From NCBI GenBank assembly GCA_000004985.1, contig GG738846.1: a DNA stretch of 64,000 bases. One strand, given 5' to 3'. The notes beneath the pieces are model-generated. The model ran no database searches. It saw only the letters and a program-made list of their open reading frames with translations, and was not told the origin of the DNA. Position numbers and translations under genes: made by a program. The stretch comes from Naegleria gruberi. Taxonomy: Eukaryota. Shown one piece after another: positions 1,880 to 57,571 of this stretch. Position 1 is the first letter of the stretch. Each line of letters starts with the position of its first letter.

Positions 1880-2905
1880 ATGGAATCTGATCTTTTTGTT
1901 AGTTATATTGCCTTGTTAACCCACGCAGTTATACCAATTATTGTGGGTAGTTTCCAATCACTGGTGCCATCACAAACCGAATCTCTCGAGGTTAAAGATG
2001 CTGCCATGTTTCCAGTGATCGGATCATGCGTTTTATTCAGCTTGTATCTTTGTTTCAAATTTTTAAGTGATGTCTGGGTCAATTTCGTGATGAGTGCCTA
2101 CTTTACATTTTTAGGAATTGGTGCTATTGCAACAGCTTTACATCCAGTTTTGAGTGCCATTATGCCACATCACATGACTGAAAAGAGCAAGGAGGGTGCT
2201 GAAAAGTATCGTTACAAGATTACTATCCCAGTTGTTAACTGGAATTTTGAATTCTCTCTTGTTGATATTATTGGAGGTGTTATTGGAAGTATTGTTGGCA
2301 TTTTCTATATTATCACTAAACATTGGATCGCTAACAATCTCTTTGGTGAATGCTTTTCCATGGTCTCTATTCAATTGATTCAATTAGGATCTTACAAGAT
2401 TGGATCTGTACTTTTGATTGGATTATTCTTTTATGATATTTTCTGGGTTTTCGGAACTGATGTTATGGTTACAGTTGCAAAGAAATTCGATGCACCAATC
2501 AAGGTTGTCTGGCCAAAGGGTGCTGGTTTCTCTCTTTTGGGTTTAGGTGACATTGTTATTCCTGGTATTTTTGTTGCTCTCATGCTCAGATTTGATTACT
2601 ACCTCTATAAGAAGTACAAAACTGGGGTATTTGCCAAGACTTATTTCATCATTACATTCATCTCTTATGTCATTGGTTTAGTTTTAACAATTGCAGTTTT
2701 GCATATTTTCCGTGCAGGCCAACCAGCTCTTTTGTACATTGTCCCTTGTGTTTTGGGAGGTTCCTTCTTGACTGCTGTCTTTAAAGGACAAGTTAGCGAA
2801 TTGTTGGGCTATCATGATGATAAACTTTTAGAGTTAGAGTATCCAGAGTTGGCTGAAAAGAAGAAGCAAGAACAAGCTGCAGCCAAAGAAGAAAAACAAG
2901 AATAA
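1880..2905 (+). CDS. HM13: Signal peptide peptidase (presenilin-type intramembrane aspartyl protease, SPP/HM13 family), single exon, 341 aa
   Basis: Multi-pass TM protein with the catalytic YD motif (FFYDIFWVFGT), GLGD motif (GLGDIVIPGIF) and QPALLYIVP (PAL motif), plus a K-rich C-terminal tail (AEKKKQEQAAAKEEKQE). Confidence 0.85.
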   Translation: MESDLFVSYIALLTHAVIPIIVGSFQSLVPSQTESLEVKDAAMFPVIGSCVLFSLYLCFKFLSDVWVNFVMSAYFTFLGIGAIATALHPVLSAIMPHHMTEKSKEGAEKYRYKITIPVVNWNFEFSLVDIIGGVIGSIVGIFYIITKHWIANNLFGECFSMVSIQLIQLGSYKIGSVLLIGLFFYDIFWVFGTDVMVTVAKKFDAPIKVVWPKGAGFSLLGLGDIVIPGIFVALMLRFDYYLYKKYKTGVFAKTYFIITFISYVIGLVLTIAVLHIFRAGQPALLYIVPCVLGGSFLTAVFKGQVSELLGYHDDKLLELEYPELAEKKKQEQAAAKEEKQE

Positions 2906-16137: not shown

Positions 16138-19100
16138 ATGCTAAACAATGGTATGTTGATTAATGTTTGCCATTGTATTCATGACTTTATAGCCTGGCAA
16201 CAGCCGTACGTAAACCTAGTAAAATTATGCTCCGAGAAGGGGAAACAACATTCTTGTGAAGGAGGAGTTACGCAAGAGATGGATCGAGACATCGGAAGAA
16301 CAGTATTCAGAATTAAAGGTTCTGTGCCATCAAATAACTATATTTCCTTTCCATCATCTATTCCTAAAAATAAGGGTGATGTGCTTGGTTTAATTGGTCA
16401 ATTTTGTTACGTAGAGTTGAGAGCTAATAGGGATGTATTTGTATTTCATGTTGAGATTATGACTAAGGATGAATTAACCTTTAGATTTTCTTTCGGAAAC
16501 ATTTCCAAACAATTCAAAGTAAGTTATCAAAGAGATCTCTTGTTTTAATTTCAATTAGAAAACTCATAATTCAATTTTCATACCCGTTGATTATCTGTCC
16601 GAGAGTTGGACTGTGCTTGCCATAGATTTTAAAGCTCTTGTTCAGACACACCTAGATAAAGTATTCAAATGTATTAGAGGCATAATTACTTGTTCAAACC
16701 TGTCATTGAAGAATGTATACACAAGTGACAATATCTATTCTACGGACACACTTACTAAAGACATGTTTCTTCCAGTTCCAAAAGGAAGTAGTTGGACTGA
16801 TCTTTATGAATGGCATTGGATTCCATCAGAACCAACAAATATCAAATTAGCATGTATTATTGACCCTCAAACTCTTAAAAAGCCTTCAACTAGTTTTAAT
16901 ACAAGTAGGACTTCATCAATTGGATCCGCCAACTCTAGACGATCAAAAATTACTGGTGTTTCTAATAAGAGTATGCTGACACCTTCTCCAATTTTGGATA
17001 TCAAACGTTTTATTGGATACAATTGTTACTATAATTCCAACTTGTGTTGGACTTTGGATTCAAATTACTGTATTTTCCCAAGTGGCTCATCAATTATCAA
17101 AATGGAAGTAGCTACAGGTAAGTAATTCTTTGATGGTGATGCTGAAAAATAATAGGAACCCAAACTGCTTTTCAAGGTCATACCCAATCCATCACCTCTA
17201 TTTGTACAGATTACAAATGTAGTATTATAGCAAGTATTCAGAATAATATTCCTCTGATTAGGTTATGGGATATCGAATCTGGGAGATGTTTATCTGTTTT
17301 AAAAGGTCAAGAGACTGAAATTAGTTGTGTTTGCATATCTGATAGTGGGAATGTAATGGTAACAATTGGAAAAGATAAATCTCTAAAGACTCAGTTTATT
17401 ATTTGGGATATTTCAAATATTAGAGATTCTGGTGAAGATGTTCCTATTATTTCTAAATATGTATGCGATTATTCAGTTCAAAAGGTCAAATTTGCTCCCA
17501 ATGAAGAAACTAAATTTGTTACTTGTGGAATGGAAAATATTAGATTGTGGAGATTGAAAGGTGGAATAGTTAGAGGTTGTTCACTCTCTCTGGAAAACTA
17601 TAGTCTAACAAAACAAAACTTTCTTGATATTGCTTTCGAAAAGGCATTTCTTTCTCCTCATGTAAGTATTTCAGGTTGATGAAACTTAAATGTTATTCTT
17701 AGTTAGGAGACAAAGACCACAGATTCTACTTAGGAACCGAATCAGGTGCTATTTATCAAGTAAATTATAATAAGAGAATAATAGAGTGTGTATTCCAACT
17801 TCATAACAGTGCAATCAATACTCTCTACATTAATGAAGGAATTTGTATTACAGGATCTGCTGATAAGTTTGTTAGAGTTTGGCCCCTAGATTTCTCTGAT
17901 TTTTTCATAGAGGCTGAATTGGAAAACTCTGTCACCAGTGTTGTGACATCTAAGGATGGATTCAAAGCTCTTATAGGAGACTCAAATGGATCTATTGGAA
18001 TTTTGGAAATAAGTACTCAGATCTACAGATCAGTACTACGATCTCACACAAAAACTGTTTTGGACGTAGTTAGTGATCCTAGTAGAATGGAGTTTGCTTC
18101 TGTGTCTCTTGATAGAACAATCAGAATTTGGGATCTTACAACTTTAAATCAAAAATATCAATTCGATATTGACGGAGAGAGCCCAATTTGTGTGGACTAC
18201 CACAAGACAGAGTACATGATAGCATGTGGATTCGAGTCTGGTATTGTAAGAATCTTTGAAGTCAACACAACCCAAGTTCTCGAAGAGTACAAGGCACACT
18301 TGTCTGATGTATTGGCCATAGCATACACATTTGATTCCAAGTGGCTAATCACCTCTTCCAAAGAATCTATTTGTATCTCAGATACCAAACACATGTACCA
18401 ACCCGTCAAGGTTATTCCCTACACATGTGAATGCAAAAGGGTGTGTTTATCATTGAGCAGAGATGGAAGATTCTTTGCATTTATTGGACCAAATAGAAAT
18501 ATTATACATGTGTACAGCTGTAAAGACTTTGAAGAAGTTTATATTTTCGAAACTCCAACCGACTTGTTCGAAGGAATAGTCTTTTCCTCTGATTCTAAGG
18601 AAATAATTGCATCCACTTCAGACAACAAGCTAATGGCCATTTGTTTGGAAAAAGGAGAAATTATTTCAGAAACTGTAAGTAGGTCGATTAGTTTGAAATT
18701 TACATCTTTATCAAAGGAATATTCAAGTAAAAACTATGCTGTAACACTAGACACAAGTCAAAATGGAAAATATTTAGTTACTGGAGGTGACGATAAATTA
18801 ATAAGGGTCTGGAACTCGAAAGACTTGGCCAACTTTAGCTGTCAAAAATTTGTTGGTCATTCTGGAGAAATTAAGAAGGTTCTTTTCAGTTCAGATTATG
18901 GTCATGTCATTAGTTGCGGAGATAATGGTATAATTGTTTGGAACTTCTTAGGAGACAAATCAAGAGATATTAATCTAATGATCGAAACACACTTGGAAAG
19001 AAAGATGATGGAAAAGAAAAAAAAGGAAGATTTTGAAGTTGATGATTTACCAAATAGATATAATGATCTTTTCTCTAAAGCTTTAGAGGAAAAGATGAGA

Positions 19101-21284
19101 CATGATATTGAGACACTTAAAGATGATCCTGCTGTTAAGGAAGATCCAAAAGAGGATCCTAAAACAACCACTTTACCGTCAAATGAACATAATAAGAATA
19201 TCATTACACCATTCAGACAATATAAGCTAAATAGACCTATCTCAAGAGTAACTGTGCGCGACAGAAATATGCCCACTGAAAACCCCTGCCTTAAATTAGG
19301 AAGAATTACTGGATATAATGGAAATGCCAGAGAGAACTTGATTTGGGATGAACCAAACAAACGTTTGATTTACACATCTGGAAATGTTATTATTATTGAA
19401 GATATCTTGACCAGACACCAACAATATCTTTTCGGTCATGAACATGAAATTAATGCACTAGCAATCCACCCAAACGGAAAAATATTGGCATCGTGTGGTG
19501 GGGTAAAAGGAATTACAATGGATTCACCAATTTTGTTTTGGAGTCTGGAAACAAACTCTGCTTTCAAGAAATTAGATTACCACAGATGGGGTGTTTTGGC
19601 AATGGACTTTTCTTATGACGGAAAGTATTTTGTTAGTGTTGGCGTCAATGAATATGATGAGAAAAACGTACTGGCTGTATGGTCTGTAGAAACTGGAAAA
19701 ATGATTGTTAATGCTATGGTTTCAGAGATAATCCATGCTGTAAAATGGTTTCCAACCTCTCCTTCATCAGAGTTTATTACCACAGGCAAAAATTCCATCA
19801 TTTTTTGGTATTTGAATCCAGAAGGGCAATTGCTAATGTCTCCAGCTAAGGTTGATGAAACATATGTGATAAGTGGAAATAGAGATGGAGAAACTATTAC
19901 TCACTATTCTTGCATTGGATTTAGTGAAGACTATAGAAGTGCTTGGGTTGGCTCAACACAAGGCTCAATTTATTGTTTTAATATTGAGACAAATGAACTC
20001 GAGTTCAAGTGGGTGGATGCTCACGATTCTGAGGTAGATTATGTTTATTGGAGGAAAAACACTGTTATCACAGCAGGAACAGACTGCCAAATCAAGAGGT
20101 GGAAGGTTAGCAAAAAAGACAAAATCTATACCATGATACTCAGGGAGCAAATGGAAGTTGATACACCAATTACTTCTGCTTATTTTGATAATGACAAGTG
20201 TAATCAAGGAGTAGTTGGAACGGCATCTGGAACTATTTGGTATATTAATTGGGAGCAGCAACAGTGCATTAGATTGATCAGTTGCCATTCAAATTTTGTT
20301 ACAGGAATTGTAAAGGTTAATGACTATCTTACTTCATGCTCTCATGATGGTTCTCTACGTATTTGGTCCAGAGTTGATGAAAATCAAGTAGTATCCTATA
20401 ACCAAATTCTTGAACTAAAGAGAGGAGAGACTAATCCCACCCCTGCACTCTGTATGTGTAACAGTACAACTAGTAACCTTGTAGCAGTAGGATTTTTGGA
20501 TGGATCGATCTATATTAATTATCTTAATGATCTCGAAAATGTTTTAAAGAACAAGATAAGACCTCATGAAGAAGCAATAACATGTATAGCTCTAACACCA
20601 AGCAACAGAATCATCACAGGAAGTGCAGGTGGTTTAATTACTATTGTTGATAATTTAGTTAATATTTCAGAAGATACCTCACTGGCACCTACAGAATTTT
20701 TGGAAAATAGATTTGTATTTATCAAGGAGTTTTTAGGTCACAGATTATGTTCTCTTGATTATGATGCTAAATCAAGACGATTTGTAAATACAACTGCCAC
20801 AGGCCTCGTGTCTGTTTGGAATGAGAATGACTTGTCTCAAGTTGCCAAGTTTGCCCCACATATTTATACCAGAAAGGTTGCAGAAAAGGAAAAGTATGAA
20901 GTGGATATCATTGCCAAATTCTCTCCTTTTGATTCAGATTTATTATTGATTACTGCTCCTTCTAAAGGTACCCCCAAGATTGAGTTTTACAATTATAAGA
21001 GGGAATATTGTGTTAAAGTTGTCGACTTGAATAGATTTGTCAGTTGTTTTGCTGTGTCTGTAAAACACAAATTAATTGCATTTGGTTCTAGAGAAAGAAT
21101 GGTAGCTATAATGGACTATGATAGTGGTGAGTTTGAAGAATATGAAGCTCATGGAGATTGTGTTAAATCTATCATGTTCGATGATACTACCGATCAAGTC
21201 TTATCCTCTGGGTTTTCTGATTTGGTTGTGTGGAAAGTCGGCTCATCAAGACCATCAGGTAAAAATATCAACACAACAAACTAA
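16138..21284 (+). CDS. WDR90: WDR90/POC16 orthologue (N-terminal CFAP20/DUF667 domain + many WD40 repeats), 4 exons: 16138..16518, 16604..17117, 17156..17661, 17704..21284
   Basis: CFAP20-like domain: GRTVFRIKGSVPSNNYISFPSS...LGLIGQFCYVELRANRDVFVFHVEIMTKDELTFRFSFGNISKQFK | SWTVLAIDFKALVQTHLDKVFKCIRGIITCSNLSLKNVYTSDNIY...FLPVPKGSSWTDLY aligns block-for-block with the human WDR90 N-terminus. WD40 region: IRLWDIESGRCLSVLKG, FVRVWPLDFSDFFIEAE, RTIRIWDLTTLNQ, etc. Introns 85, 38 and 42 nt. Confidence 0.85.
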
Positions 21285-25119: not shown

Positions 25120-28100
25120 ATGCCACCAAGAGAAGCAAGAGGAAATTCCAACCCATCATCTGGCTCTTCTCGATACCACAGATCATTTAAGAATACATCG
25201 GATAATACCGATGAACAACAACATAAACCTTCAAGAGGGAATTATAGAGGGGGATATAGAGGAAACTCTCGTTCAAATTCTTCTTCAAGAACAGAGGAAA
25301 CAAATGACACAAACACACAAAAATCGACTTCTCACAGAGGAGGACACAATACACAAAGAGGACCTTACATACCAAGAAATTCAGAGGATTTATCGGAAGG
25401 TTTACCTAAAACAAGAGTTAAGCCATACAAACCTGGTTTTATTAAAAAACAAAAATCCGAAACACTTCCCAATTTTCAAATAGTAGCAAGAAATGATGAA
25501 GATGAGGAAAGTTCACAAACATCAAATAGGACAAAAAAACAACCATTTAAAAAACCGAATCCAAAAGATTTAGTTTGGGAAAGATCTGCTGAAAGAGATG
25601 ATGAGCAGGCTCCAAAACCTCCAAAACAAACTTTTCAAAAACAACCATTTAAAAAACCGAACCCAAAAGATTTGGTTTGGGAAAGGCCTGCTGAAAGAGA
25701 TGATGAACAGATTCCAAAACAAAAATTAAAGAAACAACCATTTAAAAAACCGAATCCAAAAGATTTGGTTTGGGAAAGGCCTCCCGAAAAGGATAATCAA
25801 AGATTTAAAGAAGGAAAAAATCTACATTTACAAATTTTCAAATAGTAGCAAATAATGACGACAAGGACGAGGAGCAAAATACTCAAAAACCACATAGAAA
25901 GCAACCATTTCAAAAACCAAATCCAAAAGATTTAGTTTGGGAAAGGCCTGCTGAAAGAGATGATGAACAGATTCCAAAACAAACTTTCCAAAAACAACCA
26001 TTTAAAAAACCGAATCCTAAAGATTTGGTTTGGGAAAGACCTGTAGATAAGGATGAGCCAACTCTAACAAATAGAATTGCAAAAAAACAACCATTTAAAA
26101 AACCAAATCCAAAAGATTTAGTTTGGGAAAGGCCTGCTGAGAGAGACGATGAGCAGGCTCCAAAACAAACTTTTCAAAAACAACCATTTAAAAAACCGAA
26201 TCCAAAAGATTTGGTTTGGGAAAGGCCTGCTGAAAGAGATGATGAAGAATCCGAACACTCTCATACACCATCTGGAATTCACAAATATTTAGATGATTTA
26301 TCACATGGCCCAAATATATTTACCCTACCACAAGGATTTTCTGGATTTGGCTCTTACAGAGATTCTAATTTACCAGATAATAATTTATTCGAAATTTCTA
26401 AACCAAAAATTGTAAATATCAACGAGGATGAAGAGGATAATATAATCAAATCTGACGAGAAAGGGGTATTATTTGAGGATGAAGAACAAGACGAAGAGTA
26501 TTATGTAGAAAAAGACCAAACAGACAATGAGCAAGATGAAGAGGATAATCATGACGAGGAAGATCAAGAAGAAGACTATAATAATTTTGTTATTGAAAGA
26601 AAATCTTCCTCATCGTATGATGAAAACGACAGTGAAAGACAAATCCTAACAATTCCCCCTAAAACACATGAAAAGAATGAAAAGGACATTATCTACTCGA
26701 AACTGAAAACTATGGAATCAAAGACAAAAATTTGGGAAAAAAGCTATCCAATCAAGGCTAACTCAATTATTGGTACATGTCAGGACAAATGCCCAAAACA
26801 AGAGATTACCAACAGAGAAAAGGATAACGATCTCAGTTTATTTGAAAAGACAGGAAAGATCATTATAGACGAGCATGGTATTAAGATGTACAAAGCAGAT
26901 CCTAATGCTTGCGTGAAAAAGTATGCCAGATCTGCTGCAGCCGTTCATGCTGATCCTTCACTAATTCGTCCTCCTCTAATACTCAAGAAAACATTGGAAT
27001 ATTTGACCCATAATATTTTAGAACGTAAAGAAGAGTATCATACTATATATTTTTTTATTAGAGACAGAGCTAGAAGTATTATCCAAGACCTAACAATACA
27101 AGACATCAGAGATGAACGAAGTGTAGACTTACATGAAATAATTTCAAGGTTTCACATAATGAGTCATCACTTACTAGCAGATGTAGGAGAAGAATTATCA
27201 GATCCTCATCAAAATCTTGAATTAATGAGCAAATGGCTTAAAAGCTTACAGGAGCTCTATTTTGAATTAAGATCTAATGGAATTGAATGTCCAAATGAGT
27301 CAGAGTTCACTGCTTACTATATACTTGTAAAGATTACTTCAGATCAAGAAGTTGCCAAGTGTTTGAGAAACCTTCCTTCCAAAGTCAGCAAGTCTCCAGA
27401 GGTATTGTTCGCCCTTAAGGTTTACGGAGCATTTTCTACTAAAAATTATGTACGATATTTTGAATTGGTCAAGCAAGCAAGTTACCTAAGTGCATGTCTA
27501 ATGCACATGTATTTTGCACATATCAGAGAAGAAGCTCTCAGAATTATGAATACAGCATTTAATATTAAGGTCACTGATATTTCCAAGGCTGGTAGATATC
27601 CAATATCTAAACTCGTAGATATTTTGGCATTTGAAACTAAAGGAGAGTGCACAGATTTTTGCAAAGCCCACGGTATTTATATTGACGGGGATGATGTATT
27701 ATTCAAATACTCCACGTTCGTAACACCTGACAAGAAAATCAAATCAAAGAGGTCATTGAGGTTGATTGAATCAAAGGTTGCTGGCATTAGATACTCTGAT
27801 CTTGTAAATTTAAATTTTCGGATAGCTCCAGAACCTTCCAAAACACCGCCGAAAGAATTAGAAACTAAAATCAATGAGTCACCTCAGAAAATCGAGATAA
27901 TCAATCCACCAACTCAAGTGCAAATAGTTCCTCCAGCTTCCCAACCAAAACCACCAACACCTGCTCTTATTCAGAGTGCTATTCCAAAGGAAGTAATAAG
28001 AGAACCTGAAACAAAAATACCATTGGTAACTCAGCAACCACCATCTAGGTATGATGTTCCACATGTCAATCCACCCTCCACTTTTGTTCCACCCAAACCA

Positions 28101-30176
28101 ACTACACAAGAAAATAGACCAATCTTTCCTCCAATTGTTTTTAGTCCTTCCCAGATGCCACCTTTTAACATAATCAAGTCACCAAATCCTCCAATTCCAC
28201 CTACTCTAATTCAACCACAACCACCTGTAGCTTTTAAAACTCAATCACATAGAAACGAAATTTCTATTGATCCCTTGATTCCTCAAATCCCAGTCTCCCC
28301 AATTAAACCCCTAGGTCCGACTGAGGAGGAAACCAAAAAAGAACTGAAAAGCAAATATTTTTCATTATTGAAGAAATATGCAGAAAGGAAAAAGAGAATT
28401 CGTGCAAGTAGGAAACAACACATCAGCAATGCAATGGACTTTGTACTCCAAGAAAATATTATGTCAGATGATTATGAAGAAGATCAATCAATGTGCAAAT
28501 ATTACAAACACATATTCAAGAAGAGATATCTCAGCCAATTATACCAACCTCTTGACTTGGCTTCTCTTATCTTTAATTCACCTGTTACTGACAAGATTGA
28601 TACATTTTTCAGCTTTTTTTGGAAACTAATGATAGTACCAGGAACAAACAGCACTCATCTTAATGAATGGATTGCGGCAAAATTTTCTCGCCCAAATAGT
28701 GATGACTATTTGTGTAATTTTATAGTAAACGGTAAGGACGTGGATTCCCTACCAAGACCCAAGAAAAACACAGAACTACATATTTGTGCACGAACCCCCA
28801 AAGACTCAAGGTCATGGAGAGGTACTTCCTCAATAATTTTCATATTGGATAATCCCAACAATACCGATTTACAGACATATTTCTCACTAGAAAAAAAGAG
28901 GTTACACCAACATTTTTCAAATTTAGGCTTATTTAATGATACTCATATCCCTATTCTAATTCTCTTTGATAAGAGCTGGTTTCACAATAGCAGTGAAAAT
29001 ATGCTAAAGGAGCATTTCCTTCACATTATCTATGAAGATTTTAAATGCTTTTCAAATGTGGAATATGTAGGCATTAATTTTACTCACCTACTAAACTTTC
29101 CCTCATCAGAAGAAATTGCTATTTTAAATCAAGTTTTAGAAAATTACACCTTGTGGCTTGCAAATAACTCCTCCGATCCACCTCTTCTCCACACATATTC
29201 TATTAGAGATTTGATAGAAGAAACAACTTTTTCACACATTCGAAAATTGTTGATCGATATTGATCCAAATGCTAGAAATGGTATAACTGTTAAGGATTTG
29301 ATACTTGTATACAATGATGTGTGTGAATCGCTATCCCATCAGACTATTTCAGAGACTGAAAGAATGAGAAAACTAAATTGGCCAGCTCCAGAGTTTGAAA
29401 AGTATTGCGATTGGAACACAGATGAAAATGCAATACTTCAAAAAGAGCTTTTAGGTCAATTATCATTACCAACCATTGATCTAACTCTCTACAACTCTAA
29501 ACATATTGTTGACAATTTGTATAGCTCATGTAAGCAGTATGTGACAACCCTGTATACAAAACGTAAGATTTATCATCCAGCCATTTCCAGTCAATCCATC
29601 AAGCAGTTGGTTAAGGAACTTGTTAACGGTGGTGGATATGCTGCTAGTATCAAAATCTTTGAAATGTTCATTGAGATACATTTAACCTTGCTCTTTGATA
29701 AGGATCCACTTTATAGTTTTGTTTTCACCACAGCAGAATTCAAAAGTATTGCCAATTCAGTTTTGGAGAGGCTCAGATATAGCTCAAACCCATTCATCGA
29801 ATCGTCATTAAGGGCTTCGTATGGGTTAAAAATGTCTCTCAATTCAGACAAGACTAATTTTGAGACTTTTAGAAATCTTAAACGTATTATCAAAGAATCC
29901 ACTCAAGAAAAAAACCAAGATTGTAAGAAGAGAAAACTTGTTACCTATATTGATATTAATCAATGTATAGGGATGCACACCCAATTATCAAACAAAATTA
30001 GTGAGCAAAGAAGTCTATTTTCTCATCTCGAATCAGCCCCATCCGATCTTAGTTACCACTCTATTGTAGATACAGATATGAGTGACACAGTATCCACCAG
30101 TGACAGTTGTCAGTCCTGCATTGATTCCCTCAAATTACTACAAGAAAAACTTGAAATGTATAGAAAGGGTATTTAA
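25120..30176 (+). CDS. SAC3/GANP-domain protein (mRNA export / TREX-2 scaffold family) with N-terminal tandem-repeat region; frame discontinuity near 25806..25845
   Basis: SAC3/GANP homology CQDKCPKQEITNREKDNDLSLFEKTGKIIIDEHGIKMYKADPNACVKKYARSAA...IRPPLILKKTLEYLTHNIL...YHTIYFFIRDRARSIIQDLTIQD. Long proline-rich and C-terminal regions. ORFs 25120..25845 and 26025..30176 carry the same repeat family in different frames. Confidence 0.6.
25490..26245 (+). repeat. Coding tandem repeat: about 87-bp (29-aa) units KKQPFKKPNPKDLVWERPAERDDEQ[AI]PKQTFQ, at least 7 copies, embedded in an about 370-bp higher-order duplication
   Basis: Repeated DNA motif aaacaaccatttaaaaaaccgaatccaaaagatttggtttgggaaaggcctgctgaaagagatgatgaacag seen at about 25540, 25650, 25740, 25905, 25990, 26085, 26180. 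Flanking NFQIVARNDEDEE (25470) vs FQIVANNDDKDEE (25835) shows the larger unit duplication. Confidence 0.85.
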
Positions 30177-51195: not shown

Positions 51196-53722
51196 TTATT
51201 GTTTACAATTTGTCGAAAATACTATCGTTCCATTGAGTTGCTCAATTACTTTTCCTAGTCTAAACATTAAACCACCCAACCTTGGTAAAAGGTATTTAGG
51301 ATATTTGTGGGTTAGAATTTGAATTGCATTTCTTTCAGCTTCTAGAAGAGGTTTTAGTCTATTCAATTGTTCAATTTTAAACGAATACATAATTTGATCT
51401 TGAAATGTGTTTTGCAAAAGTACCTCTGCTTGCATGATGTGAATATCTGAAACTCTCTCCAAAATACTCATATCACCGTTATTGAAAAGTAGTGATTCTT
51501 GACTGATATGGGTTAGTAAAAAAAAAGAATTGAACTTACTTGAAATATTTCAAATTGTCCACATATTTGTCGCAATATATAACTAACAACTTGTCCAAAG
51601 TTGATTTGATAGAAGTTGGAGATCTTGATTGACTAGGAGAGTTTGGTTCCTCACTTGAAAGAATTGAAAAGATGGAAGGATGGTTGGGAGCAGTGCCATT
51701 CATAATTTGTTGAGATTCTTTTTCTGTTATATTGTTAAATGAGACAAGTAATCTACTCAATTCACCTGTAATTGCATTCTCAAAATTTTTGAAAATGGTT
51801 TCTAATTTTAAAACAGCCATGTTGTTAAATTGATATACTCTGTCTTCTTCTGTACATTGTTCCAACATTTTCTCAAGGAGTGATACTGTAGTGCTATAAA
51901 TTGAAAATTTTCTCAAGAGTTGAATAATACCAAACGTTGATGGATCCATACTAACTAGTCCTGTATATGTTGATTCCTTTTGAAAAATGCAATTAAAAAA
52001 ATCCAGTTTCAAAATCAACCTACCTTAGTCATTAAAATAATAATCATTAAATAAATTTCAATATTATCTACAGTCAATCTTTTTACATTCTTCAAGGTTG
52101 TAATAGTTAGTAACTCAGAAGGCAATTTACCTCTTGCTGAAAGATAAAGGCTTGTAGCAAGTCGCATACAATTTAAATCAAATAATTGATGGATATCTTC
52201 TCTGAGATTAATACTAGTTCTTGTTAATTGAATGGGAGGTAAATTGTTATTGATACGTTGAATATTTTCTGACTTTTGAATGTAGTAACGAAATGTATCG
52301 AATGTCATTCCAACTATTAACCTGTATTTGTAAACACATAGCAAATACACATTTTCAACTCTGTAAAGAGAATAATCTGAATTGATTCGAGCTTCCTCAG
52401 CAATTGAGTAATTAATAAATACTCTATCTCTATAGTTTGGAGAATGTAAATCCAGCATTTCATCTGCTTTTAACAAAAAATACCTCGATAACCCTAAATT
52501 ACTATCTCCCATAAAATAAAAAGATGCCAACAAGTATCTTCCACTTCTAATCATGAAAAATCTATCCTCAACATCACTAATAATTAAATTGCTGACATGT
52601 CGTGCATGTTTTCCAACTAATAGATCAATTAGTTGTTCGTTGGTTGTGGGATTTTCATAGAGGTGCTGTACATCATCTTTAACATATCCTTCGAATCCCA
52701 ATTCTATTGAACGTTTAATTGAAGACTCTGCCTGATCTAAAAAACCATTGGATGCACATGTCACTCCATGTAATGTATACAAAAGTGAGAGAACTTCTGT
52801 TTTTCTATATTGGGTAACATATTCTCCAGCATGTTTTGAAAAATCAGGTAACTCAAAAACACTGTTAGGATTTCTGAATATTTCATTCATTGAATTTTTT
52901 AAATCATTTCCAAATATTGATTGTTCAATGAGTTCTTCAGGAAAGATTTTGAAGCCATAAACAATATGTCTGTAAAAATTATTTATCAATTAGGCCTAAT
53001 GTTGTAATGTTACCTACCTATGATAATATTCGAATGAATTGATTTTTACAAATGATGTGACTATCATATCTTGCATTAACATTTCCTCTAATTCTTTAGA
53101 ATTTTGATTTGAATCCTCATCTCTTCTTTCATTATTGTCCAAGAAAGTATGAAGTTTTTGTAAAATCTTTGAGGATGAAGGATCAAAACCAAACGCATCC
53201 ACAAAATTATCTATATACTGAGTTGAGTAGGCAATATTTGAGTTTTTTTGGAGAGCAATATTTTGATTGTAGGGATGATATCGTGTTGAGAGTTCCGAAT
53301 TGTTGACATCAGAAGATGATTTTGCACTTGATGAGGATGATTGCAGCTCCAGTCTTGATCTTGTTGCATTATTAAAGATAACAGTATCACCTTGCTTTTT
53401 TTTACGTCCGGTTGTTTCGTATCGGAATGAATGTATTTCGAAATCCTTCTTCTTTTGTTTGTTGGGAACAGGTTTTTGCACTTGTCCAGTTAGAAGCATC
53501 TTTTGAAGATATTCTTTCTTAGGTTGTAAATATACACATACATAGCCCTTCTTTAAGCATTCTTGACATTGTGGTAGCGTTCTTGAGCATTTTGTATGCT
53601 TTTTCCGACAATTTTCACCTAGATTTCTTGATGAATGGATTGTGTGAGCAAAAAGTGGTTTACTTACAGGCAATTGGGTGGTATTGGTTGTTTTTATCAG
53701 CCTCAACCTCGGATGAAGACAT
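51196..53722 (-). CDS. Fungal-type Zn(2)-Cys(6) binuclear-cluster (GAL4-like) transcription factor, about 5 exons: 53722..53668, 53618..53014, about 52989..52015, about 52018..51536, about 51471..51196
   Basis: Exon 1 MSSSEVEADKNNQYHPIAC| + exon 2 ENCRKKHTKCSRTLPQCQECLKKGYVC gives a perfect C-x2-C-x6-C-x6-C-x2-C-x6-C cluster. A 49-nt intron (GTAAGT...TCTAG, 53619..53667) falls between Cys1 and Cys2. Downstream exons are large low-complexity/helical regions (family middle-homology not confirmed). Confidence 0.7.
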
Positions 53723-53960
53723 TTTTTTGAGTTCTACTTGATTGTACGAATAAATTTAGTCTCTCTTTGCAAATCATCAAAATTTGTTGGAATATTGAGT
53801 GATATTTCAGCAATGTCTAATATTGTGATAATTTTTAAATTCTCCAAGGAAATTCCAAATTTGATTGTAGTAAGTTTGTAAGGTTGATTTATTCCATTAA
53901 AGATATCAAAATGAAATTAAATCTCTGTAGATAATTTATGAGATTAAAAATTTAGAAAAA

Positions 53961-55477
53961 ATGTCGTCATTTCTGCCTTGTTCTGGCTCTGAATATCTGA
54001 CCCTAATGACAACATGTGCTCCGGGCCTGGAAAAATCATCAGCCGACGAAATTGAAGAAAAATTAAATAATTTACGGAAGAGAAGTGACTTGGCAATTAA
54101 TATTTATCACATTTATTCAAAGTTTGAAAATATTGATGATGATAATTTCAAGGAAATTATTAGAATATTTCAGAGGCGAGATATCAAGTCAATGCTGCAA
54201 GGAAAAATTATTATTCAATTCCATTTTTCTTCCACCTCTGAGAAATTGAAAATATCTGTATTTAATGAAACTATTTCCTCACTTCTTGAATGTCTATCAA
54301 TTGTCAAAATTCACATTCTAGTTTATGTTTTGGAAAATCTTTCTTTTCCCTCTTCAAGTACTTCCACTCAGGAAAAATCCTCTCCAAACGATTCAACTGG
54401 AGATAGTTTTGAAGAAAAAGAAAGAGAATGGGCTAGAAGATTGAAAAATGATCCAAACTTTAATTATTTTTTGGAATGCCATCAACATGCATTGCCAGAA
54501 AGCAAATGTTGGAAAGAATCGTTAGAAAAGTGGGTTGACATGAGAAATATATTATTTGAAAATTCCACAAAAGATAAAATAACAAGTGTGGAGGCACTTA
54601 AATTCAGAATCACATCAAGAAGGTTTGTTTCATTTGATGTTCTAATTTATTAACTAAATTAAGGTCTGGACAACATAACTTCAAATCGAGTGATATGTTA
54701 TCGTGGTTTGGATTATTGGTATCTCACAAGTTAATGGGTGAGGAGATTAGCAACATTGGAAAAACTTGGAAAGCAGATTTAACAAATTATGATCTCGATA
54801 TTTTTCAAATCCTCTACAATGATACTCTCTTTCTCTCATTCACTCTGTGTGAGGAAACCATTTGTTTACAAACGTTTTCTAAACAATTCAAAAATGAATT
54901 GTTCTTAAACTCAACATCTTTGAGACCCAATATTGCTTTTGGATTAATTAATCTTGCAAATATCAAAAAAGGAGATGTATTTTGTGATATCTGCTCTGGT
55001 ACTGGAATAATTTCACTGATGGCTTTACACTTATTTAAAAATAATATTCAAATTATTTCTGGAGAATTATCTGAGGAAATTTTACAGAACCACCTAATCA
55101 ACAATATTGACAATTACAGGTATTCAAATAATACAATACAACCTCTGAAATGGGACTTCACTCGCCTCCCTTTAAAAACAGCCACTGTTGACGTCATTTG
55201 CTCAAATTTACCTTTCGGAAAGCAGATTGGATCACATTCATTAAATAAGGAAATTTACCCTCCCATGTTTTCAGAATTATGCAGGGTTTTGAGACCTGAA
55301 GGAAGAATTGTTATTCTCACATCTGAAAAACACTTGATGCAAAAAGTTCTACAAGAAAATAAGGTATTCATATCATTTTTTTCACGAATTTCTATTCATC
55401 AAGGTGGTTCAGATGTTTTTGTTTACATTCTCACAAGAAAAAGTAAAGCATTTTTTGTAAAGAAACAAAAACAATAA
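53961..55477 (+). CDS. THUMP-domain RNA methyltransferase (THUMPD2/THUMPD3-like, tRNA guanine-N2 MTase family), 2 exons: 53961..about 54629, about 54678..55477
   Basis: THUMP end KFRITSRR|SGQHNFKSSDMLSWFGLLVSHKL...ADLTNYDLDIF (spliced; intron GTTTGT...TTAAG). Class I MTase motifs GDVFCDICSGTGIISLMA, VDVICSNLPFGKQIGS, LRPEGRIVILTSE. Confidence 0.65.
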
Positions 55478-56389: not shown

Positions 56390-57571
56390 ATGGTAAATGT
56401 AATAGTCAGAGGATCCCGAGCAGACGACATTGAAAATATTGATTTACTTGGACAACCAATGAAATCAATCACATCAGGTTTTGGCCATGTGTTAATATTA
56501 TCAGAGAATGAGAAATTATTTAGTTTTGGTCGTAACGATTGTGGTCAACTTGGTTTTGAATCGGAAAATCCTGATGAAGTTGATGTTTTGAAAATCACCC
56601 CCATACCTTGGAGCAATTCTATTAAATCAATTCATTGTGGTTCCTTGCACTCTATGATTTTAAGTGATGATAATTGTCTATTTTCTTGTGGTAGCAACGC
56701 ATTTGGGCAATGTAGTCAACCAACTCTCTCTGGCCCTATTATTGCTCAGTTTACCCTTATTGAAATAGATGAAATTGTACGGAATAAGATAGCTACAATA
56801 ATTTGTAAATTTGCACATAGTGGTTTCGTCACTTCCGATAGAGAGTTATATTGTTGCGGGAGGAATCATGATTTGGAAATTGGTATACAAAACAGTGATA
56901 ATGTAAACAAATTTACAAAAGTGCCAAATATTCCTCCTGTAAAGCTGGTAGATTTTGCTTGGAAATATACGGTTATTGTAACGATGGAAAATGAAATATA
57001 TTCCTCCAAGCATGGCATTCTGAGAACAGAATGTACACTTAACCCGTGCATTGGTAAATATTGTGGATGGAATCCTTCTATCAATGGAGAAATTGTCAAA
57101 CTCCAATGTGGAAATGAGCATACAATACTGCTTACACAAAATATGGAACTTTTTGGGTTTGGATATTCACCCAATGGAGAAATTGGAGTCTCTCAAAGTT
57201 CAATAATTAAGGAGGTTGTAAGAATCGGAGGATCCATCCTGGACAGAGTTTGTAACTTTGTTACATCATATAATCAATTAATTGTTTTTACAACTGGTGG
57301 AACCATTTATGTTTCTGGTCTAAACACTAGAGGGCAATTGAATTTCTCTCTAAATAATAACATGATAGATTCTAAAGATCCAGTGGAAACGCTCACACCT
57401 GTATCTCAATCCAGATATTTCAATTCAGCTTGTATTGGTAATCAATTTACCATATTATATCACAGAACAGAAGGGCAATTCAAAATTGAAAAATTATTCA
57501 AGCAACAATTATTTTCACTCGCCTTACATGAATACTTTTTTGATACGAGCATTGTCTTTTGTAAAGAGTAA
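56390..57571 (+). CDS. RCC1-repeat (regulator of chromosome condensation-like) beta-propeller protein, 393 aa
   Basis: Repeated RCC1 blades: GFGHVLILSENEKLFSFGRNDCGQLG, IHCGSLHSMILSDDNCLFSCGSNAFGQC, LQCGNEHTILLTQNMELFGFGYSPNGEIG. Confidence 0.65.
   Translation: MVNVIVRGSRADDIENIDLLGQPMKSITSGFGHVLILSENEKLFSFGRNDCGQLGFESENPDEVDVLKITPIPWSNSIKSIHCGSLHSMILSDDNCLFSCGSNAFGQCSQPTLSGPIIAQFTLIEIDEIVRNKIATIICKFAHSGFVTSDRELYCCGRNHDLEIGIQNSDNVNKFTKVPNIPPVKLVDFAWKYTVIVTMENEIYSSKHGILRTECTLNPCIGKYCGWNPSINGEIVKLQCGNEHTILLTQNMELFGFGYSPNGEIGVSQSSIIKEVVRIGGSILDRVCNFVTSYNQLIVFTTGGTIYVSGLNTRGQLNFSLNNNMIDSKDPVETLTPVSQSRYFNSACIGNQFTILYHRTEGQFKIEKLFKQQLFSLALHEYFFDTSIVFCKE

What the first reader, a model, noticed from the sequence alone, without database searches (positions are those of the whole stretch)
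53580..53722. Fungal-type Zn2Cys6 zinc-cluster TF with an intron splitting the cluster; lineage clue (zoosporic or Rozella-like fungus?)
A canonical GAL4-type C-x2-C-x6-C-x6-C-x2-C-x6-C motif only appears after removing a 49-nt GTAAGT...TCTAG intron that lies between the first and second cysteines (exon 1 MSSSEVEADKNNQYHPIAC | exon 2 ENCRKKHTKCSRTLPQCQECLKKGYVC). Zn2Cys6 factors are overwhelmingly fungal, with rare cases in some amoebozoans. Co-occurrence here with centriole/flagellum genes, about 35% GC, 35-85-nt introns and 30-100-nt intergenic spacers fits an early-diverging flagellated fungus with a strongly compacted genome (chytrid or Cryptomycota-like). This is an inference, not a demonstrated assignment. 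The intron-split cluster also means gene finders that ignore the 55-nt first exon will mis-annotate the protein as lacking a DNA-binding domain.
Basis: partly seen in the sequence, partly recalled or inferred. Interest (0 to 1): 0.5.

Follow-up and report, generated by a model that had tools for sequence, protein, structure and literature searches.

The report
Naegleria zinc-cluster factor, truncated in databases
This is a real GAL4-type zinc-cluster transcription-factor gene whose DNA-binding domain is split by a 49-base intron, but it belongs to the amoeboflagellate Naegleria gruberi, not a fungus, and its only news is that the public protein record starts too late and so lacks the DNA-binding domain.

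Summary
On the minus strand, ATG 53722 opens a 55-nt exon. A 49-nt GTAAGT...CTAG intron (53667-53619) sits in phase 1 inside the first Cys codon. Splicing gives CENCRKKHTKCSRTLPQCQECLKKGYVC, which matches Pfam Zn_clus (E 2.7e-10, 40.6 bits against a cutoff of 21). No unspliced frame contains the six-Cys motif.

The lineage guess is wrong. Four neighbouring proteins are 100% identical to Naegleria gruberi NEG-M RefSeq entries (Heterolobosea). An expansion of Zn2Cys6 proteins in N. gruberi (71 proteins) is already in the literature.

The gene has five exons and encodes 781 aa. N. fowleri and N. lovaniensis orthologues keep 'YHPIAC|E.CRKKH' and have an intron at the same site and phase.

The public model XP_002682997.1 (D2V001, 'predicted protein', 723 aa) equals residues 59-781. 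It starts at Met59 and lacks all six cysteines.

Verdict: a new, corrected member of a known kind, of low to moderate interest.

The parts
53668..53722 (-). Exon 1 (55 nt). Start codon at 53722-53720. Encodes MSSSEVEADKNNQYHPIA plus the first base (T, 53668) of the Cys1 codon. Absent from the public model.
   Evidence: An in-frame TAG lies 15 nt upstream of the ATG (read). 'YHPIAC' is identical in the N. fowleri and N. lovaniensis orthologues.
53619..53667 (-). Intron 1, 49 nt, GTAAGT...TCTAG, phase 1 inside the Cys1 codon (T|GT).
   Evidence: Orthologues have an intron at the same position and phase (149 nt in N. fowleri, 139 nt in N. lovaniensis).
53018..53618 (-). Exon 2 (601 nt). Holds the rest of the zinc cluster, basic patches and a Ser/Asn-rich linker.
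   Evidence: Colinear with the orthologues.
53512..53671 (-). Coding span of the Zn2Cys6 binuclear cluster domain (Pfam aa 18-54), interrupted by intron 1. Cys2 to Cys6 lie at 53610-53536.
   Evidence: Pfam PF00172, 40.6 bits against a cutoff of 21. Pattern coordinates. Profile hits to the LAC9, HAP1, PUT3, GAL4 and PPR1 DNA-binding domains in the PDB.
53497..53499 (-). Met59 codon, the start of the deposited model XP_002682997.1. It lies downstream of all six cysteines.
   Evidence: P0021 equals residues 59-781 of the full model.
52970..53017 (-). Intron 2, 48 nt, GTAGGT...ACAG. Specific to N. gruberi.
   Evidence: Also used by the public model. Absent in the orthologues.
52024..52969 (-). 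Exon 3 (946 nt), the core of the conserved helical C-terminal domain.
51977..52023 (-). Intron 3, 47 nt, GTAGGT...AAAG. Specific to N. gruberi.
51540..51976 (-). Exon 4 (437 nt).
   Evidence: An unspliced ORF call of this exon exists in ENA as P0009.
51503..51539 (-). Intron 4, 37 nt, GTAAGT..TACTAAC..CAG, phase 2. Position shared with the orthologues.
   Evidence: NLKYF|NQES aligns with NLREF|xKET.
51196..51502 (-). Exon 5 (307 nt) with stop codon TAA at 51198-51196.
51199..53091 (-). Coding span (with introns 2-4) of the roughly 590-aa all-alpha C-terminal domain (aa 195-781). Shared with Naegleria and Willaertia zinc-cluster paralogues and possibly MHD/Cep3-like.
53723..53960 (.). 238-bp divergent intergenic region between this gene and the plus-strand gene starting at 53961. 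Presumed to hold the promoter and 5' UTR.
   Evidence: Inference from gene positions only. Not tested.

Best explanation
The locus is a five-exon nuclear gene of Naegleria gruberi (minus strand, 53722-51196) encoding a 781-aa Zn2Cys6 (GAL4-type) zinc-cluster transcription regulator.

Shown:
- Removing four short GT-AG introns (49, 48, 47 and 37 nt) gives one open frame.
- The first intron splits the first Cys codon. Only spliced mRNA encodes the six-Cys cluster (aa 19-46).
- This N-terminal segment is the best-conserved part of the protein across Naegleria species.
- The deposited protein record begins at Met59 and therefore lacks the domain.

Inferred from what is known of the family:
- The cluster binds two Zn(II) ions.
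- Its basic Cys2-Cys3 segment (RKKHTK, close to Put3 RKRHIK) contacts CGG-like triplets in the major groove.
- The basic patches after the cluster (PKKEY, KQKKKD, RKKKQ) serve nuclear import or backbone contacts.
- The low-complexity linker is a spacer. It is about 215 aa longer in N. fowleri and N. lovaniensis.
- The large helical C-terminal domain is the regulatory or effector module. It sits where the fungal middle homology domain sits, and probably has that fold.

Target genes, the signal sensed and the oligomeric state are unknown.
For: Sequence and splicing:
- Exon and intron coordinates and the single open frame.
- Pfam Zn_clus E 2.7e-10, above the gathering score.
- Profile hits to the LAC9 (1e-7), HAP1, PUT3, GAL4 and PPR1 DNA-binding domains.

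Organism:
- Exact matches of four window proteins to N. gruberi NEG-M.

Orthologues:
- N. lovaniensis and N. fowleri proteins of 995 and 996 aa carry PF00172.
- They are colinear across all four exon junctions.
- Intron 1 and intron 4 positions and phases are shared.
- Residues 14-58 are 73-76% identical to the orthologues, against 43% for the rest.

Public model and family:
- The public model equals residues 59-781 and independently uses introns 2-4.
- The C-terminal domain recurs behind Zn2Cys6 clusters in N. gruberi D2VTU3 ('GAL4 domain-containing protein') and three Willaertia magna proteins.
Against: - No transcript evidence was available, so the exon 1 to exon 2 junction rests on comparative evidence only.
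- No DNA-binding, zinc-binding or expression data exist for this protein.
- No heptad coiled-coil follows the cluster (read), so the usual GAL4-style dimerisation element is not evident.
- The C-terminal domain has no Pfam Fungal_trans hit in any of 13 family members.
- Foldseek against the PDB found nothing significant.
Confidence: 0.88

Rival explanations
1. The deposited model is the true product. Translation starts at Met59, the protein has no DNA-binding domain, and the upstream cluster-coding segment is an unused relic.
For: This is the only N. gruberi model in the public protein sets. No transcript data were available here.
Against: The segment missing from that model is the most conserved part of the protein (73-76% identity against 43%). 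All six Cys, the basic helix and the loop Pro are intact. Orthologues and paralogues carry the cluster in the same place. The intron position is conserved between species while the intron sequence and length are not. A relic would not stay in frame with intact splice sites.
Confidence: 0.04
2. The six-Cys pattern is a coincidence produced by choosing a convenient GT...AG pair.
For: Short GT...AG pairs are frequent in AT-rich DNA. One unrelated five-Cys pattern occurs in an off-frame at 2692-2778.
Against: Pfam E 8e-12. The five-Cys remainder is expected 0.015 times per shuffled window. The alternative AAG acceptor gives an immediate stop (read). The spliced peptide is identical in the orthologues.
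Confidence: 0.01
3. The gene is fungal: either contamination of the assembly, or the window comes from an early-diverging fungus.
For: Zn2Cys6 domains are most abundant in fungi. The window's 33% GC, short introns and flagellar genes are superficially compatible with Rozella or chytrids.
Against: The gene sits inside a 1-Mb N. gruberi scaffold between genes identical to N. gruberi RefSeq proteins. Its only full-length relatives are in Naegleria and Willaertia. Rozella has a single Zn-cluster protein, against 71 recorded for N. gruberi (PMC5611559).
Confidence: 0.01
4. On origin, not identity: the whole Zn2Cys6 plus helical-domain gene type reached a heterolobosean ancestor by ancient horizontal transfer from a fungus or a fungal relative, rather than descending from an early eukaryotic ancestor.
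For: The patchy non-fungal distribution has been discussed in these terms and is unresolved (PMC5611559; PMC5415576). If the C-terminal domain is truly Cep3/MHD-like, the full fungal-type two-domain architecture is present. That fits transfer of a whole gene.
Against: No detectable sequence similarity to fungal MHDs remains. The family has diversified into several paralogues in two genera. It carries lineage-typical introns at several different sites in the cluster. These features are equally compatible with great age. No phylogeny could be made here.
Confidence: 0.35

Closest known systems
N. fowleri FDP41_008355 and N. lovaniensis C9374_012995 ('Zn(2)-C6 fungal-type domain-containing protein')
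   Same: They are orthologues: 39-44% identity over the full length. The domain order is the same, as are the cluster sequence context (YHPIAC-E-x-CRKKH) and the phase-1 intron in the Cys1 codon. The phase-2 intron near the C-terminus is also shared.
   Different: They are about 215 aa longer, through a Q/S/T-rich N-terminus and linker. They have a second intron inside the cluster, creating a 41-nt micro-exon, that N. gruberi lacks. They lack N. gruberi introns 2 and 3. Flanking genes are not syntenic.
N. gruberi XP_002682997.1 / EFC50253.1 / D2V001_NAEGR (NAEGRDRAFT_62122, 'predicted protein')
   Same: It is the same gene. Its sequence is identical to residues 59-781 and it uses the same introns 2-4.
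   Different: It starts at Met59. It therefore lacks exon 1 and the first 119 nt of exon 2, which is the whole Zn2Cys6 domain, and carries no domain annotation.
Fungal GAL4-type Zn2Cys6 DNA-binding domains (LAC9, HAP1, PUT3, GAL4, PPR1)
   Same: They share the six-Cys spacing, the basic Cys2-Cys3 segment, the conserved Pro before Cys4 and the N-terminal position in the protein. The best solved match is LAC9 (E 1e-7).
   Different: The host is a heterolobosean. No coiled-coil dimerisation element is evident after the cluster; a conserved Y-x-x-PKK motif follows instead. The DNA target has not been tested.
CeGAL family (fungal Zn2C6 plus middle homology domain; archetypes Cep3 and GAL4; PMC10141177)
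   Different: No Pfam Fungal_trans signal appears in any of 13 members. The family is described as fungus-specific and this protein is not fungal. The structural match is moderate and rests on a predicted model.

Membership tests
Zn2Cys6 binuclear cluster DNA-binding domain (Pfam PF00172, GAL4 type) | Six cysteines spaced C-x2-C-x6-C-x5-12-C-x2-C-x6-8-C | tested here: met
   CENCRKKHTKCSRTLPQCQECLKKGYVC at aa 19-46 of the spliced product.
Zn2Cys6 binuclear cluster DNA-binding domain (Pfam PF00172, GAL4 type) | Profile HMM score above Pfam's gathering threshold | tested here: met
   40.6 bits against a cutoff of 21, E 2.7e-10, matching profile positions 2-38 of 39. All three orthologues match.
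Zn2Cys6 binuclear cluster DNA-binding domain (Pfam PF00172, GAL4 type) | Basic DNA-contact segment between Cys2 and Cys3, and a conserved Pro in the Cys3-Cys4 loop | tested here: met
   RKKHTK and ...TLPQC read directly from the sequence. They align with LAC9 RKKKWK / TVPTC and HAP1 RKRKVK / LRPHC.
Zn2Cys6 binuclear cluster DNA-binding domain (Pfam PF00172, GAL4 type) | Binds two Zn(II) ions and recognises CGG-type triplets | not testable with these tools
   Needs biochemistry (metal analysis, protein-binding microarray, DAP-seq or EMSA).
Zn2Cys6 binuclear cluster DNA-binding domain (Pfam PF00172, GAL4 type) | Linker plus coiled-coil dimerisation element after the cluster (typical, not universal) | tested here: inconclusive
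   By inspection, only about 10 residues (KKEYLQKMLL) with helical character follow the cluster. Paralogues have basic, non-heptad sequence there. No coiled-coil predictor was run.
CeGAL (Zn2C6 plus middle homology domain supra-domain) | Match to Pfam Fungal_trans / MHD sequence models | tested here: not met
   No Fungal_trans hit at E up to 10 in 13 family members, nor in the three orthologues.
CeGAL (Zn2C6 plus middle homology domain supra-domain) | All-alpha MHD fold as in Cep3 | tested here: inconclusive
CeGAL (Zn2C6 plus middle homology domain supra-domain) | Restricted to fungi | tested here: not met
   The host is N. gruberi, Heterolobosea.
   SLU7, RasGEF and two further proteins are 100% identical to N. 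gruberi NEG-M RefSeq entries.
Heterolobosean zinc-cluster plus C-terminal helical-domain family (Naegleria and Willaertia) | Shared C-terminal domain detectable by profile search, with Zn2Cys6 at the N-terminus | tested here: met
   13 relatives among 1.84 billion representatives. Named members are N. gruberi D2VTU3 and D2VEI0 and five Willaertia magna proteins. Six deposited models carry a full cluster.

The most novel reading that the evidence does not exclude
The C-terminal domain of this protein and its Naegleria and Willaertia paralogues is a true, highly diverged homologue of the fungal middle homology domain (Cep3 fold). If so, the complete 'fungus-specific' Zn2C6-MHD (CeGAL) architecture exists as a diversified, intron-rich gene family in Heterolobosea. 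That would turn the unresolved question of where zinc-cluster regulators came from (ancient eukaryotic origin or transfer from fungi) into a two-domain phylogenetic problem that can be tested. It would also mean that the Naegleria repertoire is systematically under-counted, because 5' cluster exons are missed.
Probability: 0.4. Interest if true: 0.55.

Novelty: new member of a known kind. Interest (0 to 1): 0.27.

Why it matters
- **Database correction.** D2V001 / XP_002682997.1 should gain 58 N-terminal residues and a Zn2Cys6 annotation. At least two metagenomic relatives (ORF calls P0015 and P0017) lose the cluster to an intron in the same way, and N. gruberi D2VEI0 may be another such case, though that was not tested. 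Counts of Naegleria zinc-cluster factors, 71 in the literature, are therefore lower bounds.
- **A caution for lineage calls.** A 'fungal' domain combined with flagellar genes, low GC and short introns does not identify a fungus.
- **A possible lead.** If confirmed, the Cep3-like fold of the C-terminal domain would extend the supposedly fungus-specific Zn2C6-MHD pairing to a lineage very distant from fungi. That bears on the open question of the family's origin.

Tried and rejected
- **A wrong interim conclusion.** After one search returned only the N. fowleri and N. lovaniensis proteins, I took the gene to be unannotated in N. gruberi. This was wrong. The public model is filed under a 137-aa ENA representative (an unspliced exon-4 ORF) and surfaced only through the exhaustive profile search and cluster look-up.
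- **Exact look-up of the 781-aa model.** Not in the collection, as expected once the truncation was known.
- **Word-index search with the DNA-binding domain alone.** It returned nothing. The same search with the 13-sequence profile added only one ENA fragment. These are limits of the tool, not evidence of absence.
- **Remote jobs on the spliced sequence.** I worked around this with exon-wise rows (A3) and then with the public-model substring (A4).
- **First AlphaFold2 run.** Five alignment rows representing three species' sequences gave pLDDT 47.9. I discarded it.
- **Structure and sequence searches for the C-terminal domain.** afdb50 was not available. Foldseek against the PDB gave no significant match. 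The profile against PDB sequences and Pfam gave no hit.
- **N. gruberi contigs.** Not retrievable from the contig index, so the possibly truncated paralogue D2VEI0 could not be checked.
- **Synteny.** None between the window and the orthologous loci.
- **Literature.** Searches for Naegleria with Zn2Cys6, Zn_clus or MHD terms found nothing direct. The de Mendoza 2013 paper is not held. The Acrasis genome paper says nothing on zinc clusters.
Full report
**Observation.** On the minus strand an ATG at 53722 follows an in-frame TAG 15 nt upstream. It opens a 55-nt exon ending ...CCA ATT GCC T at 53668. The next 49 nt (53667-53619) read GTAAGTAAACC...AAATCTAG. The sequence then continues GT GAA AAT TGT CGG AAA AAG CAT... 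Joining the two exons completes a TGT codon. The product is MSSSEVEADKNNQYHPIACENCRKKHTKCSRTLPQCQECLKKGYVC, with the pattern C-x2-C-x6-C-x6-C-x2-C-x6-C at residues 19-46. Without splicing, the frame stops two codons past the donor (TGT AAG TAA).

The one refinement is that the intron lies in phase 1 inside the first Cys codon.

**Not chance.** The six-Cys pattern occurs in none of the six unspliced frames. The five-Cys remainder is expected 0.015 times per shuffled window. The spliced N-terminus matches Pfam Zn_clus PF00172 at E 8e-12 for 80 aa, and at 2.7e-10 and 40.6 bits for the whole protein, against a gathering score of 21.

**Source organism.** The window has 33.5% GC. Four complete ORFs are 100% identical to Naegleria gruberi NEG-M RefSeq proteins on one 1,001,995-bp scaffold. 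They are SLU7 (XP_002682988), a RasGEF protein (XP_002682985), XP_002682994 and XP_002682769.

N. gruberi belongs to Discoba, Heterolobosea. The flagellar and centriolar neighbours (WDR90/POC16, CLASP) and the housekeeping genes (TFIIH p44/Ssl1, SAC3/GANP, PSF3, TRAPPC9) fit an amoeboflagellate.

The premise was also weak. Scazzocchio (2014) records 71 zinc-cluster proteins in N. gruberi and just one in Rozella allomycis (PMC5611559). Shelest (2017) notes that the patchy non-fungal distribution is known and its origin unresolved (PMC5415576).

**Gene model.** Three further short GT-AG introns give one 2,346-nt reading frame of 781 codons.

| Feature | Coordinates | Length |
|---|---|---|
| Exon 1 | 53722-53668 | 55 nt |
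| Intron 1 | 53667-53619 | 49 nt |
| Exon 2 | 53618-53018 | 601 nt |
| Intron 2 | 53017-52970 | 48 nt |
| Exon 3 | 52969-52024 | 946 nt |
| Intron 3 | 52023-51977 | 47 nt |
| Exon 4 | 51976-51540 | 437 nt |
| Intron 4 | 51539-51503 | 37 nt |
| Exon 5 | 51502-51196 | 307 nt, stop TAA |

Intron 4 contains a TACTAAC box.

A homologue search returned two full-length relatives: N. lovaniensis C9374_012995 (995 aa) and N. fowleri FDP41_008355 (996 aa). Both are annotated 'Zn(2)-C6 fungal-type domain-containing protein' and carry PF00172. They align colinearly across all four N. gruberi exon junctions.

**Comparative support for the first exon.** The orthologues read ...QKYHPIACEACRKKHKKCDRTLP.C.EC..RGLNCVYYEPKKEYLQKM. 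I mapped their proteins back onto their genomic loci, L001 and L002.
- Both have an intron at exactly the same place and phase: GCA T|GTATGT...AG|GT GAG in N. fowleri and T|GTACGT...AG|GC GAG in N. lovaniensis. These introns are 149 and 139 nt, with no sequence resemblance to the 49-nt N. gruberi intron.
- N. gruberi intron 4 is likewise shared (phase 2, NLKYF|NQES against NLREF|xKET).
- Introns 2 and 3 are specific to N. gruberi.
- The other two species have an extra phase-0 intron inside the cluster (CDRT|LP.C). It creates a 41-nt micro-exon.
- Residues 14-58 are 73-76% identical between species, against 43% for the rest of the protein.

A conserved peptide across the junction, a conserved intron position and unconserved intron sequence are what a real, ancient splice site should show. 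No flanking synteny is retained.

**Public annotation.** My exact 781-aa model is not in the 15-billion-sequence collection, and one search showed no N. gruberi hit. I first read that as 'unannotated', which was wrong.

An exhaustive profile search with the C-terminal region found 13 relatives among 1.84 billion representatives. One is a 137-aa ENA protein that is simply the unspliced exon-4 ORF. Its cluster also holds XP_002682997.1 / EFC50253.1 / D2V001_NAEGR (NAEGRDRAFT_62122, 'predicted protein', 723 aa).

That sequence is identical to residues 59-781 of my model. It uses the same introns 2-4, which is independent support for them. It starts at Met59 (53499-53497), the first in-frame ATG of exon 2, downstream of all six cysteines.

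The same failure is documented on a large scale for fungal zinc-cluster factors, where most 'MHD-only' proteins are annotation errors (PMC10141177). It recurs in this family.
- In two metagenomic heterolobosean contigs the cluster is split by introns at other positions: phase 0 before Cys3 in L003, and phase 2 inside the Cys3 codon in L004.
- The ORF calls there either start after the cluster or keep only half of it.
- N. gruberi D2VEI0 (443 aa) also begins inside the C-terminal domain. Its DNA could not be fetched.

**The protein.** The DNA-binding domain has the family's hallmarks.
- The Cys2-Cys3 segment is basic (RKKHTK).
- The conserved Pro precedes Cys4 (TLPQC).
- A profile of the three orthologues hits only zinc-cluster DNA-binding domains in the PDB: LAC9 at 1e-7, then HAP1, PUT3, GAL4 and PPR1.

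After Cys6 comes a conserved Y-x-x-PKK motif, then basic patches (KQKKKD, RKKKQ) and a Ser/Asn-rich spacer. I see no heptad coiled-coil, so the oligomeric state is open.

Residues 195-781 form a helical domain. It has no Pfam hit at E up to 10 in 13 members and no PDB sequence hit. It recurs behind Zn2Cys6 clusters in N. gruberi D2VTU3 ('GAL4 domain-containing protein') and in Willaertia magna KAL9645459, KAL9648888 and KAL9656101.

**Fold of the C-terminal domain.** A first AlphaFold2 run on a shallow alignment was unusable (pLDDT 47.9). With the 13-sequence alignment the N. gruberi domain gave pLDDT 66.9 and pTM 0.70, with a core of about 240 residues at 77-93.

**Mechanism.**

Shown:
- A spliced mRNA is required to encode the cluster.
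- The cluster is under strong purifying selection.
- The architecture is an N-terminal zinc cluster, a spacer and a large helical domain.

Inferred from the well-studied fungal family:
- Two Zn(II) ions are held by the six cysteines.
- The basic helix reads CGG-like triplets.
- The C-terminal domain regulates activity or recruits partners.

Unknown:
- Targets, signals and oligomeric state.

**Novelty and score.** Zinc-cluster factors in Naegleria are known, and the orthologues are already annotated as such. What is new is small. There is a corrected N. gruberi gene model that restores the DNA-binding domain, and evidence that such truncations recur in the family. There is also a description of a Naegleria and Willaertia C-terminal domain that may be a diverged MHD.

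I file it as a new member of a known kind, with interest 0.27. The most novel reading not excluded is that the full 'fungus-specific' Zn2C6-MHD architecture exists in Heterolobosea. I give that a probability of 0.4 and an interest of 0.55 if true.

Noticed in passing
L003 650-780 (ENA ERZ929261 k127_540995) and L004 3930-4090 (Logan SRR29240419_835): Metagenomic heterolobosean relatives of this gene also have the zinc cluster split by introns, but at other sites. In L003 the intron is in phase 0 before Cys3. In L004 it is in phase 2 inside the Cys3 codon. The ORF calls (P0017, P0015) start after the cluster or keep only half of it.
   Followed up: partly
L001 6349-6389 and L002 6366-6406: N. 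fowleri and N. lovaniensis orthologues have a 41-nt micro-exon inside the zinc cluster. It lies between the shared Cys1 intron and a second phase-0 intron at CDRT|LP. N. gruberi has lost, or never had, the second intron.
   Followed up: yes
not in window: N. gruberi XP_002677547.1 / D2VEI0 (P0018): This 443-aa deposited model begins inside the shared C-terminal domain and has no DNA-binding domain. It may be another 5'-truncated zinc-cluster gene. Its genomic DNA could not be retrieved.
   Followed up: no
window 25120-26200 (+): There are several near-identical repeats of about 25 aa (KKQPFKKPNPKDLVWERPAERDDEQ) at the N-terminus of the SAC3/GANP gene. The two ORFs 25120-25845 and 26025-30176 share them, so they are probably one gene joined by an intron.
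   Followed up: no
window 17919-21284 (+): A 1,121-aa ORF of multiple beta-propellers matches the WDR90/POC16 centriolar protein propeller models.
   Followed up: partly
window 2692-2778 (+), off-frame within the ORF 1880-2905: A five-Cys pattern (CSFAYFPCRPTSSFVHCPLCFGRFLLDCC) fits the relaxed zinc-cluster regular expression in a non-coding frame. It has no basic residues and I judge it to be chance.
   Followed up: yes
window 51540-51950 and 56390-57571; ENA proteins P0009, P0002, P0004: ENA assemblies hold short contigs (1.1-3.7 kb) whose mechanically called ORFs are 100% identical to N. gruberi ORFs. P0009 reads through into intron 4. Because of how the protein collection is clustered, such a fragment became the representative that hid the real RefSeq model from the word-index search.
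   Followed up: partly
ENA contig of 1,212 bp (P0016, P0025): Fragments about 71% identical to the N. gruberi protein point to a further, closer Naegleria species carrying the orthologue in an environmental assembly.
   Followed up: no
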